From NCBI RefSeq assembly GCF_051903065.1, contig NZ_CP178438.1: a stretch of DNA of 64,000 bases; one strand, 5' to 3'. Below the pieces are notes generated by a model. That model ran no database searches. It was not told the DNA's origin and saw nothing but the letters and a program-made list of their open reading frames with translations. Positions 33,180-33,509 of the stretch are shown here, in pieces. Made by a program: the position numbers and the translations under genes. This stretch comes from Escherichia coli. Lineage in GTDB: Bacteria > Pseudomonadota > Gammaproteobacteria > Enterobacterales > Enterobacteriaceae. The first letter of the stretch is position 1; the number at the start of each line of letters is the position of its first letter.

Positions 33180-33509
33180 ATGAAACGCCACTCCACGCTT
33201 TTTCTTTTCACCCTGCTCACGCTGACCACCGTACCGGCCCAGGCCGATATTATCGACGACACCATTGGCAATATTCAGCAGGCGATTAACGACGCTTATA
33301 ACCCTGACCGTGGGCGAGACTATGAAGATTCGCGCGACGATGGCTGGCAGCGTGAAGTGAGCGACGATCGGCGCAGACAATATGACGACCGCCGCCGCCA
33401 GTTTGAAGATCGCCGCAGGCAGCTGGACGATCGCCAACGTCAGCTTGATCAGGAGCGTCGGCAACTGGAGGATGAAGAGCGGAGAATGGAAGATGAGTAT
33501 GGGCGGTGA
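33180..33509 (+). CDS. yjdP: small secreted charged-repeat protein YjdP
   Basis: 109 aa; signal peptide ending PAQA; DDRRRQ-type repeats. Confidence 0.85.
   Translation: MKRHSTLFLFTLLTLTTVPAQADIIDDTIGNIQQAINDAYNPDRGRDYEDSRDDGWQREVSDDRRRQYDDRRRQFEDRRRQLDDRQRQLDQERRQLEDEERRMEDEYGR

What the first reader, a model, noticed from the sequence alone, without database searches (positions are those of the whole stretch)
33180..33509. YjdP: secreted small protein built from DRRRQ-type charged repeats at the island boundary
After a signal peptide the protein is almost entirely repeats of D/E and R/Q (DDRRRQYDDRRRQFEDRRRQLDDRQRQLDQERRQLEDEERR). Function is unknown. It directly follows the island kinase gene with only a 68 bp gap, so read-through co-expression is possible.
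Basis: seen in the sequence. Interest (0 to 1): 0.3.

Follow-up and report, generated by a model that had tools for sequence, protein, structure and literature searches.

The report
YjdP: exported charged-repeat protein, own promoter
This is the already-named but uncharacterised E. coli core gene yjdP, encoding a small exported protein with a rod of DDRRRQL repeats; it seems to be driven by its own conserved envelope-stress (RcsB-type) promoter, not by the neighbouring island kinase gene.

Summary
An ORF at 33180-33509 (+) encodes a 109-aa protein with a Sec-type signal peptide and six to seven DDRRRQL-type heptads, far beyond chance. It is YjdP, which already has a curated family (NCBIfam NF041443; Pfam PF28054) but no known function.

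The gene does lie at the edge of the published OI167 island (lmvR-lmuKAIZYX-lmvK). However, yjdP is a backbone gene: it is in 5,404 of 5,426 complete E. coli genomes, while the kinase-yjdP junction is in 371. Across Enterobacteriaceae its 3' neighbour is almost always phnP, and its 5' neighbour varies (lmvK, rpiB, yjcS, others).

Whatever lies upstream, all 83 loci examined keep TGAGAnTCCTCC 71-75 nt before the ATG and, 23 nt further on, a TAnnnT hexamer. This fits the published RcsB box at 7 of 8 positions and copies the geometry of the RcsB-activated rprA promoter. Published RNA-seq shows yjdP induced about 10-fold by Lol inhibition and regulated opposite to rpiB. Read-through from the kinase is therefore unlikely to be its main mode of expression.

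The mature protein is predicted to be a conserved amphipathic helix, an acidic linker and a 55-residue salt-bridged helix. Its biochemical role remains unknown. The gene is ordinary and already known, with a useful regulatory lead.

The parts
30850..33111 (+). lmvK, the hybrid sensor histidine kinase/response regulator of island OI167. This is context only, not part of the yjdP unit.
   Evidence: Pfam HAMP, HisKA, HATPase_c and Response_reg domains. The RefSeq annotation of the identical sequence starts at the position equal to window 30850. Named LmvK in PMC10128022.
33109..33122 (+). Conserved RcsB-box-like element TGAGAATCCTCCTC, which overlaps the lmvK stop codon.
   Evidence: It matches 7 of 8 specified positions of TN(G/A)GAN4TC(T/C)NA (PMC7913699). 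It is present 71-75 nt before the ATG in 80 of 80 loci plus 3 of 3 distant loci, with four or more different upstream genes. A single match is not significant, because 12% of shuffled 140-mers have one.
33146..33151 (+). Inferred -10 hexamer TACCTT (TAnnnT), 23 nt after the box. There is no recognisable -35.
   Evidence: TAnnnT lies exactly 23 nt after the box in 73 of 80 loci, and 24 nt in most of the others. The same 23-nt spacing is seen at rprA, with box at -49..-36 and TACTAT at -12..-7. The consensus sigma-70 scan finds nothing here, as expected for an activator-dependent promoter.
33158..33158 (+). Inferred transcription start (A), giving a 22-nt 5' UTR with GAGG/GAG Shine-Dalgarno-like bases.
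   Evidence: Inference only, by analogy with rprA, where +1 is 7 nt after the hexamer. It has not been mapped.
33180..33509 (+). yjdP coding sequence (109 aa plus stop).
   Evidence: ORF list. NCBIfam NF041443 scores 149 bits against a cutoff of 90. RefSeq annotates it as 'DDRRRQL repeat protein YjdP', WP_000820643.1.
33180..33245 (+). Sec-type signal peptide (residues 1-22, cleaved after AQA). It also contains the haplotype breakpoint between island-type and K-12-type E. coli, at about 33196-33215.
   Evidence: Sequence features. pN/pS is 0.56, so selection is relaxed here. Identity to the K-12 type is 0.6-0.7 up to 33215 and 0.9 or more after it.
33246..33302 (+). Conserved amphipathic N-terminal motif DIIDDTIGNIQQAINDAYN (residues 23-41).
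   Evidence: It is nearly invariant across genera, with pN/pS 0.14. Hydrophobic residues are spaced 3-4 apart at I25, I29, I32, I36 and A39. AF2 predicts a helix with moderate confidence.
33303..33362 (+). Variable acidic linker (residues 42-61).
   Evidence: Its length and sequence vary between genera. pN/pS is 0.40. AF2 gives low pLDDT and no secondary structure for residues 41-53.
33363..33506 (+). DDRRRQL heptad array (residues 62-109; six full heptads plus the EDEYGR tail), predicted to be one long helix.
   Evidence: TRF period 21. Lag-7 identity statistics and i+3/i+4 opposite-charge pairing of 17 and 17 against 1 and 1 same-charge pairs. AF2 predicts a helix over 54-108 with pLDDT 89-98. 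pN/pS is 0.17. Family consensus is [DE][D][R][R][R][Q][L].
33534..33628 (.). Pair of G-rich palindromic repeat elements in the yjdP-phnP spacer: HPG1 on the - strand at 33534-33554 and HPG2 with one mismatch on the + strand at 33608-33628. This is a known dispersed repeat family that may act as a bidirectional 3'-end structure.
   Evidence: Pattern matches and inverted repeats. The motifs, and their presence between yjdP and phnP in K-12, are described in PMC5100583. The query that included this stretch hit a median of 6 places per genome.
33653..34411 (-). phnP, the last gene of the phosphonate C-P lyase operon, convergent with yjdP. It is the conserved 3' neighbour.
   Evidence: ORF and annotation. 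phnP is adjacent in nearly all of the 83 loci.

Best explanation
yjdP is a backbone gene of Enterobacteriaceae, not island cargo. It is most likely transcribed from its own activator-dependent promoter in the 68-bp gap. That promoter consists of an RcsB-type box (33109-33122) centred about 42.5 nt upstream of the inferred start, no -35 element, and a -10 hexamer TACCTT (33146-33151). If so, the gene is switched on by the Rcs envelope-stress phosphorelay, as rprA is. The product is exported by the Sec pathway and cleaved after AQA. The roughly 87-aa periplasmic protein has three parts. The first is a strongly conserved two-heptad amphipathic helix, the likely docking or self-association site. 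The second is a variable acidic linker. The third is a 55-residue helix made rigid by a continuous D/E-to-R salt-bridge ladder, with one Leu, Phe or Tyr per heptad. The most likely role is a structural or protective envelope-stress protein. What is shown: the gene, the repeat, purifying selection, the synteny, the conserved upstream module, and published stress induction in K-12. What is inferred: RcsB as the activator, the transcription start, periplasmic location, helix rigidity and oligomeric state, and the biochemical role.
For: Family identity: NF041443 at 149 bits and the RefSeq name. Core-gene status: 5,404 of 5,426 genomes. Variable 5' neighbour and constant 3' neighbour phnP across 80 species loci and 3 distant loci. 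Conserved box, 23-nt spacer and TAnnnT in 83 of 83 loci, independent of the upstream gene. The box fits the published RcsB consensus at 7 of 8 positions. The proven RcsB-activated rprA promoter has an identical layout, with box at -49..-36, a 23-nt spacer and TACTAT. In K-12, yjdP is induced 9.5- and 10.6-fold by a LolCDE inhibitor, in a table headed by osmB, bdm, wca, ivy, yjbEF and rcsA. After imipenem yjdP rises 1.41-fold while upstream rpiB falls to 0.64-fold and has roughly 5- to 10-fold fewer reads. Protein: signal-peptide features; charge periodicity; AF2 helix 54-108 at pLDDT 89-98; pN/pS of 0.14 for the motif and 0.17 for the repeats. The family is narrow, with 55 representatives among 1.84 billion proteins. 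All named genome hits are Enterobacteriaceae, the group in which the Rcs phosphorelay is conserved (PMC3950696).
Against: No experiment links RcsB to yjdP. The Lol-inhibitor response mixes the Rcs, Cpx and RpoS regulons, by the authors' own account. The imipenem effect is small. The box misses the final consensus A in every species. A 7-of-8 match occurs somewhere in 12% of shuffled 140-mers, so the assignment rests on conservation and geometry, and another factor could recognise the 18-nt conserved core. The transcription start is not mapped. No strong terminator follows lmvK, only a weak 5-bp stem at 33133-33146, so read-through may contribute. AF2 tends to draw long helices for charged repeats, and the overall pTM is only 0.36. 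Asp is a weaker helix former than the Glu typical of single alpha-helices. No phenotype or partner is known.
Confidence: 0.6

Rival explanations
1. One reading: yjdP is functionally tied to the island and is expressed mainly by read-through from lmvK, so that it is co-regulated with the mannose/LEE LmvK-LmvR system.
For: yjdP is on the same strand as lmvK, with a 68-bp gap. Only a weak terminator-like stem lies between them. In E. coli the promoter region and the first ~10 codons belong to the island-type haplotype. lmvK is also the upstream neighbour in many Citrobacter and Enterobacter species.
Against: yjdP is present in about 15 times more E. coli genomes than the island junction. The same 68-bp gap follows rpiB in K-12. 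The upstream neighbour varies widely while the promoter module stays fixed. In the K-12 arrangement yjdP is more abundant than its upstream gene and is regulated in the opposite direction. The OI167 paper places yjdP outside the island, and its supplements as held do not mention yjdP.
Confidence: 0.07
2. yjdP works with the phosphonate (phn) C-P lyase system, as suggested by its conserved position next to phnP.
For: phnP lies immediately downstream and convergent in nearly all loci, including distant homologues whose gene ends overlap it.
Against: The convergent orientation excludes co-transcription. yjdP is retained where the phn operon is reduced to a phnH remnant (L086). It occurs without phn neighbours in Phytobacter (L052 and L054). 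The conserved upstream element resembles an RcsB box; by my own recall it does not resemble a Pho box, but I did not scan for Pho boxes. The published induction is by envelope stress.
Confidence: 0.07
3. The promoter is independent, but the conserved box is bound by a regulator other than the RcsB homodimer. Candidates are an RcsB heterodimer with an auxiliary partner, CpxR, a sigma-S-associated factor or an unknown protein.
For: Conservation extends over about 18 nt (TTGAGATTCCTCCGCTAC), which is more than the weak RcsB read-out needs. The last consensus position is never met. Lol inhibition also induces the Cpx and RpoS regulons. CsiR overexpression lowered yjdP to 0.28-fold, with a ChIP peak inside the gene.
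Against: The layout is identical to PrprA. Both half-sites, RGA and TCY, are intact in 83 of 83 loci. By eye I saw no CpxR-type GTAAA-N5-GTAAA repeat, but this was not formally scanned.
Confidence: 0.2
4. The heptad region is a canonical dimeric or trimeric coiled coil rather than a salt-bridged single helix.
For: There is a strict 7-residue period with Leu, Phe, Tyr or Met at one position. The only weak PDB sequence matches are tropomyosin and GCN4. The N-terminal motif has true 3-4 hydrophobic spacing and could nucleate assembly.
Against: The second core position is R, Q or E and never hydrophobic across the family. Opposite charges are concentrated at i+3 and i+4 within one helix.
Confidence: 0.3

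Closest known systems
YjdP family (NCBIfam NF041443 'DDRRRQL repeat protein YjdP'; Pfam PF28054 'YjdP')
   Same: The window protein is a full-length member, at 149 bits over model positions 1-101 of 101. The identical protein, WP_000820643.1, is annotated this way in RefSeq.
   Different: Nothing differs in kind. This allele has the 'island-type' signal peptide (MKRHSTLFLF) rather than the K-12 type (MKRFPLFLLF). It has six full heptads, whereas common E. coli alleles have five.
RcsB-homodimer-activated promoters, with PrprA as the type example
   Same: A 14-nt pseudo-palindromic box is followed by exactly 23 nt and a TAnnnT -10 hexamer, with no good -35. yjdP is induced by an Rcs-activating stress.
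   Different: The box has C instead of A at the last consensus position. The transcription start is not mapped, and there are no binding or genetic data for yjdP.
ER/K-type single alpha-helix (SAH) domains, for example in myosin VI/X and caldesmon (from my own knowledge)
   Same: A long predicted helix carries a dense network of opposite charges at i to i+3 and i to i+4, and lacks a two-position hydrophobic core.
   Different: The residues used are Asp and Arg, with no Lys and little Glu. One hydrophobic residue per heptad is kept. The protein is bacterial and periplasmic, and no solution data exist. The resemblance is functional only, not homology.
Small Rcs/Cpx-induced periplasmic stress proteins of E. 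coli (Spy, CpxP, Ivy, MliC, OsmY)
   Same: All are small Sec-exported proteins induced in the same Lol-inhibitor data set.
   Different: There is no sequence or family relationship, and no LTXXQ motifs. The biochemical activity of YjdP is unknown.
O-island 167 (lmvR-lmuKAIZYX-lmvK) of EHEC, PMC10128022
   Same: The window carries this island immediately upstream of yjdP, as described in the paper.
   Different: yjdP is the flank of the island, not a member. The 'island' alternates with als-rpiB at the same slot in many Enterobacteriaceae genera, so it is an old cassette polymorphism rather than an EHEC-specific acquisition.

Membership tests
YjdP family (NF041443 / PF28054) | Score above the curated cutoff of the equivalog HMM over its full length | tested here: met
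   149.1 bits against a cutoff of 90, covering residues 1-103 and model positions 1-101 of 101. All close homologues carry the precomputed PF28054 hit.
YjdP family (NF041443 / PF28054) | Signal peptide, then the conserved D-I-I-D-D-x-I-G-N-I-Q motif, then DDRRRQL heptads | tested here: met
YjdP family (NF041443 / PF28054) | Syntenic position convergent with phnP | tested here: met
OI167 island gene set | Present only where the island is present | tested here: not met
   yjdP is in 5,404 of 5,426 genomes, while the kinase-yjdP junction is in 371. PMC10128022 describes the island as inserted between yjcS and yjdP.
RcsB-activated promoter (rprA type) | RcsB box TN(G/A)GAN4TC(T/C)NA | tested here: inconclusive
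   7 of 8 specified positions match. Both half-site cores are intact and the terminal A is replaced by C in all species. A match this good is common by chance in a single sequence (frequency 0.12).
RcsB-activated promoter (rprA type) | Box abutting the -35 position (centre about -42.5), 23 nt before the -10 | tested here: met
   The spacing to a TAnnnT hexamer is 23 nt in 73 of 80 loci and in the window, identical to rprA. The absolute position depends on an unmapped transcription start.
RcsB-activated promoter (rprA type) | Induction by Rcs-activating envelope stress | tested here: met
   Literature only, for K-12: 9.5- and 10.6-fold with a LolCDE inhibitor and 1.41-fold with imipenem. These stresses are not specific to Rcs.
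RcsB-activated promoter (rprA type) | Loss of induction in rcsB deletion mutants, and RcsB~P binding to the box | not testable with these tools
   This needs genetics and EMSA, footprinting or ChIP. No such data were found.
Canonical coiled coil | Hydrophobic residues at both the a and d heptad positions | tested here: not met
   Position 7 is L, Y, F or M. The position three or four residues away is R (54%), Q (25%) or E (12%), and never hydrophobic.
ER/K single alpha-helix (SAH) | Dense i to i+4 opposite-charge pattern with no hydrophobic seam | tested here: inconclusive
   The charge pattern is met: 17 and 17 opposite-charge pairs against 1 and 1 same-charge pairs at i+3 and i+4. However, one hydrophobic residue per heptad remains, and the residues are D and R rather than E and K.
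ER/K single alpha-helix (SAH) | Stable monomeric helix in solution | not testable with these tools
   Only an AF2 monomer model is available.
Bacterial lipoprotein or Tat substrate | Lipobox Cys, or a twin-arginine motif | tested here: not met
   There is no Cys in the protein, and the n-region is MKRH.

The most novel reading that the evidence does not exclude
YjdP is a dedicated effector of the Rcs envelope-stress response. Its conserved N-terminal helix docks onto an envelope partner, and its rigid helix acts either as a periplasmic spacer or ruler, or as a polyampholyte decoy or shield against cationic host factors such as antimicrobial peptides or lysozyme-like proteins. From my own arithmetic, 55 residues at 1.5 Å rise per residue give a rod of about 80 Å; the copy number of whole heptads varies between strains. 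This would be a new functional class of bacterial single-alpha-helix protein.
Probability: 0.12. Interest if true: 0.6.

Novelty: already known. Interest (0 to 1): 0.28.

Why it matters
The gene and its repeat family are already catalogued, so the finding as stated adds nothing new, and the island co-expression idea is probably wrong. What this work adds is a concrete, testable regulatory assignment for one of the E. coli core genes of unknown function. A promoter module is conserved in every genus that has the gene, and it is laid out exactly like the RcsB-dependent rprA promoter. If that is confirmed, yjdP joins the Rcs regulon. That gives a rationale for looking for envelope-stress phenotypes and for testing whether a periplasmic charge-zipper helix has a mechanical or protective role. 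The work also shows that the 'EHEC island' OI167 is one of two ancient alternative cassettes at a fixed slot, with its right-hand recombination breakpoint inside the yjdP signal-peptide codons.

Tried and rejected
- The consensus sigma-70 promoter scan of 32600-33800 found nothing. This is uninformative for an activator-dependent promoter.
- Pfam-A as held gave only a sub-threshold DUF7900 hit. The other NCBIfam hits (FlbB, RNase Y, HlyD) and the PDB hits (tropomyosin, GCN4) are coiled-coil or low-complexity noise.
- Rfam at E ≤ 1 gave only two meaningless eukaryotic matches.
- A conserved GCCAG/CTGGC hairpin in the 5' UTR of other genera was tested. RNAalifold predicted nothing. Explicit pair counting gave 79% of cells paired, but 45 of 500 shuffles reached the covariation score. 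The hairpin is also absent from the window sequence (z = +1.24). I dropped it as part of the explanation.
- Literature: 'yjdP' occurs in 7 papers, of which 5 concern E. coli. 'b4487' gave nothing relevant. The Laubacher and Ades Rcs regulon paper is not held. Two further transcriptome supplements lack yjdP, and one paper has no supplement held.
- The CsiR overexpression entry (0.28-fold, with a ChIP peak inside the gene) was judged peripheral.
- I considered a fold search of the AF2 model and a linked-dimer prediction but did not run them. A lone helix gives meaningless structural matches, and the tool returns no contact information.
- The antisense ORF 33006..33530 (174 aa) was treated as a by-product of GC-rich repeat codons and was not pursued.

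Full report
**1. The observation.**
The upstream kinase ORF ends with TGA at 33109-33111, so the gap is 68 bp.

The N-terminus, MKRHSTLFLFTLLTLTTVPAQA|D, has a basic n-region, a hydrophobic core and an A-x-A cleavage site. It has no Cys and no twin arginine. It is therefore a Sec/signal-peptidase-I type signal, not a lipoprotein or Tat signal.

The repeat is real:
- Tandem Repeats Finder reports a 21-nt period at 33363-33435.
- In the protein the lag-7 identity is 0.48, whereas the best value at any lag in 20,000 shuffles was 0.41.
- The units are DDRRRQY, DDRRRQF, EDRRRQL, DDRQRQL, DQERRQL and EDEERRM, followed by an EDEYGR tail.
- Opposite charges lie almost only at i+3 and i+4 (17 and 17 pairs, against 1 and 1 same-charge pairs). 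There is one hydrophobic residue per heptad.
- The mature protein has 20 Arg, no Lys, 18 Asp, 9 Glu and 10 Gln.

**2. What it is.**
NCBIfam has a curated equivalog model, NF041443 'DDRRRQL repeat protein YjdP'. The protein scores 149 bits against a cutoff of 90 over the whole model. The Pfam copy available for scanning has no model that passes, but every homologue carries the newer precomputed family PF28054, which is named YjdP. RefSeq annotates the identical sequence as yjdP, WP_000820643.1. No relative has a solved structure.

The family is small. A profile search of 1.84 billion representative proteins found 55 hits at E ≤ 1e-3. A scan of one genome for each of 100,044 species found it only in Enterobacteriaceae genera. 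These include Escherichia, Citrobacter, the Klebsiella oxytoca group, Raoultella, Enterobacter, Leclercia, Lelliottia, Kosakonia, Cedecea, Kluyvera, Trabulsiella, Pluralibacter, Pseudocitrobacter and Phytobacter. A few more divergent full-length members came from metagenomic contigs.

The architecture is constant across the family:
- a signal peptide;
- an almost invariant D-[IV]-[IV]-D-D-A/T-I-G-N-I-Q-Q/R-A motif;
- an acidic or Ser-rich linker of variable length;
- five or six heptads with consensus [D/E]-D-R-R-R-Q-L;
- an acidic tail.

Selection is purifying on the motif (pN/pS 0.14) and the repeats (0.17). It is relaxed on the signal peptide (0.56) and the linker (0.40). The repeat is therefore a constrained structure, not drifting low-complexity sequence. 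Natural alleles differ by whole heptads, giving mature lengths of 73, 80, 87, 94 and 101 aa.

**3. Relation to the island.**
The upstream genes are a response regulator, a sugar kinase, an aldolase, a lyxose/mannose isomerase, an ABC transporter and the hybrid kinase. Together they are the published O-island 167, lmvR-lmuKAIZYX-lmvK. [quoted passage not shown]

yjdP itself is core. It is in 5,404 of 5,426 complete E. coli genomes, whereas the stretch spanning the kinase end and yjdP is in 371. In K-12-type genomes the upstream gene is rpiB, and the gap is again exactly 68 bp.

Between the two E. coli haplotypes, identity is 0.35-0.6 through the gap and 0.6-0.7 over the first codons. It reaches 0.9 or more only after about 33215. 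The recombination breakpoint of the cassette swap therefore lies inside the signal-peptide codons. The island-type signal peptide resembles those of Citrobacter and E. albertii more than that of K-12.

Across 80 species loci, phnP is almost always the convergent 3' neighbour. The 5' neighbour is variable:
- lmuX-lmvK in Citrobacter, Enterobacter, Leclercia, Kosakonia and others, with LmvK at 70-82% amino-acid identity;
- alsR-rpiB in Cedecea, Klebsiella, Raoultella, Lelliottia and others;
- yjcS directly in Pseudocitrobacter and Kluyvera georgiana;
- something else in the remainder.

OI167 is thus one of two old alternative cassettes at a fixed slot, and yjdP belongs to the fixed flank.

**4. 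The promoter.**
I aligned the 140 nt upstream of yjdP from all loci. One element is conserved regardless of the upstream gene: TTGAGATTCCTCCGCTAC. Its 14-nt core, TGAGATTCCTCCGC, is identical in 55 of 80 loci, and it starts 71-75 nt before the ATG. Exactly 23 nt after the core lies a TAnnnT hexamer in 73 of 80 loci, and 24 nt after it in most of the rest. Three divergent homologues, with yet other upstream genes, have the same arrangement.

The core fits the RcsB homodimer box TN(G/A)GAN4TC(T/C)NA, which was defined structurally and by EMSA in PMC7913699. It matches 7 of the 8 specified positions, and only the last A is a C. A single 7-of-8 match is not significant, since 12% of shuffled 140-mers contain one. 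The argument rests on conservation and geometry.

As a control I fetched the rprA promoter of MG1655, where the annotated 5' end of the sRNA is its transcription start. There the box TGAGACGAATCTGA spans -49 to -36 (centre -42.5). Exactly 23 nt later lies the -10 hexamer TACTAT at -12 to -7. That is the same layout as upstream of yjdP.

In the window this gives:
- the box at 33109-33122, overlapping the lmvK stop codon;
- the -10 hexamer TACCTT at 33146-33151;
- an inferred start at A33158;
- a 22-nt leader.

The absence of a -35 element explains why the consensus scan found no promoter.

**5. Expression data from the literature.**
In K-12, yjdP rose 9.5- and 10.6-fold after LolCDE inhibition. 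It sits in a table headed by classic Rcs targets such as osmB, bdm, wca genes, ivy, yjbEFG and rcsA (PMC5105897). The authors attribute that response to Rcs, Cpx and RpoS together, so it is not specific to Rcs.

In TOP10 cells treated with imipenem, yjdP went from 478 to 672 normalised reads (1.41-fold up). The upstream gene rpiB went from 96 to 61 (0.64-fold). ivy and osmB also rose (PMC6286996, Table S2). yjdP is thus more abundant than its upstream gene and is regulated in the opposite direction. That contradicts read-through as its main source of transcript in the arrangement with the same 68-bp gap.

The OI167 paper's supplements, as held here, do not mention yjdP. A CsiR-overexpression data set lists yjdP as repressed, with a ChIP peak inside the gene. 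I treat that as peripheral. I found no rcsB-mutant or RcsB-binding data for yjdP.

**6. The protein.**
AlphaFold2, run with a 20-sequence alignment, predicts:
- a helix through the signal peptide and the N-terminal motif (residues 3-40, moderate confidence);
- an unstructured stretch at residues 41-53;
- one uninterrupted helix over residues 54-108, with pLDDT 89-98.

The overall pTM is 0.36, as expected for a rod on a flexible tether.

The N-terminal motif has classical 3-4 hydrophobic spacing at I25, I29, I32, I36 and A39. It is the best-conserved part of the protein, which points to a docking or self-association surface (inference).

In the repeats, the position that would be the second core position of a coiled coil is R, Q or E and never hydrophobic. 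Acid-base pairs at i+3 and i+4 run the length of the helix. This resembles ER/K-type single alpha-helices (from my own knowledge), with three differences: Asp and Arg are used instead of Glu and Lys, there is no Lys at all, and one Leu, Phe or Tyr per heptad is retained. A canonical coiled coil is therefore disfavoured but not excluded.

**7. Best explanation and rivals.**
Most likely, yjdP is a backbone gene with its own RcsB-type, activator-dependent promoter. It encodes a Sec-exported periplasmic protein that carries a rigid charge-zipper helix on a conserved docking helix, and it serves the envelope-stress response.

My confidence in the separate steps is:
- family identity: about 1.0;
- independent promoter: about 0.8;
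- RcsB as the activator: about 0.65;
- rod-like helix: about 0.6;
- protective or structural role: about 0.4.

The rivals are:
- co-expression with the island by read-through (about 0.07);
- a functional link to the phn operon (about 0.07). This is disfavoured by the convergent orientation, by retention of yjdP beside a phnH remnant in L086, and by the absence of phn neighbours in Phytobacter;
- a regulator other than the RcsB homodimer acting at the box (about 0.2);
- a true coiled coil as the structural alternative (about 0.3).

**8. Novelty and verdict.**
The gene, its name and its repeat family are already in the curated databases, and the island is published. The finding as written is correct but ordinary, and the speculative part (island co-expression) is not supported.

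The conserved rprA-like promoter module is, as far as the searchable literature shows, not described for yjdP. It is a modest and readily testable lead on a core gene of unknown function. Interest is 0.28.

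Noticed in passing
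window 33534-33554 (- strand) and 33608-33628 (+ strand); perfect palindrome at 33596-33616: The yjdP-phnP spacer carries an exact HPG1 motif (GGGAGAGGGTTAGGGTGAGGG) on the minus strand and a one-mismatch HPG2 motif on the plus strand. This is the paired G-quadruplex/hairpin repeat family described in PMC5100583. The part of my query that included this stretch hit a median of 6 places per E. coli genome.
   Followed up: partly
window ~17900-33111 (the island); loci L006-L079: The 'EHEC' island OI167 (lmu-lmvK) occupies the same slot upstream of yjdP in Citrobacter, Enterobacter, Leclercia, Kosakonia, Raoultella sp. and Pluralibacter, with LmvK at 70-82% amino-acid identity. It alternates with als-rpiB in other genera. 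It therefore looks like an ancient two-cassette polymorphism rather than an EHEC-specific acquisition.
   Followed up: partly
window 33109-33111; L002 11917-11919: In E. coli, both unrelated upstream genes (lmvK and rpiB) end at the TGA that lies inside the conserved box, and both leave a 68-bp gap. In other genera lmvK stops 15-20 nt or more further upstream.
   Followed up: partly
window 33196-33215: The breakpoint between island-type and K-12-type E. coli haplotypes lies inside the yjdP signal-peptide codons. The promoter, leader and first ~10 codons therefore travel with the cassette, while the mature protein is nearly identical in both types.
   Followed up: yes
proteins P0008, P0021, P0099, P0115, P0116 and others: Natural yjdP alleles differ by whole heptads (21 nt), giving mature lengths of 73, 80, 87, 94 and 101 aa. 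A five-heptad allele, P0099, is seen on 1000 or more contigs.
   Followed up: partly
L034, L072, L016 and others, positions -30 to -5 before the yjdP ATG: An inverted repeat (GCCAG...CTGGC) at the inferred 5' end of the mRNA is present in most genera, with some compensatory changes. Covariation is not significant (45 of 500 shuffles reach the score). The repeat is missing from E. coli and from the window.
   Followed up: yes
L086 4001-4935; L052 and L054: In one genome yjdP is kept next to a phnH remnant and yjdM, where the rest of the phn operon is gone. In Phytobacter there is no phn neighbour at all.
   Followed up: no
L002 20563-21350 and L003 13167-13602: phnE is annotated as frameshifted in the K-12-type record and phnO as frameshifted in the O157:H7 record. 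In the RefSeq record identical to the window over the 651-bp query, both are annotated as intact.
   Followed up: no
window 33006-33530 (- strand): A 174-aa antisense ORF covers all of yjdP. I took it to be a by-product of the GC-rich repeat codons and did not examine it further.
   Followed up: no
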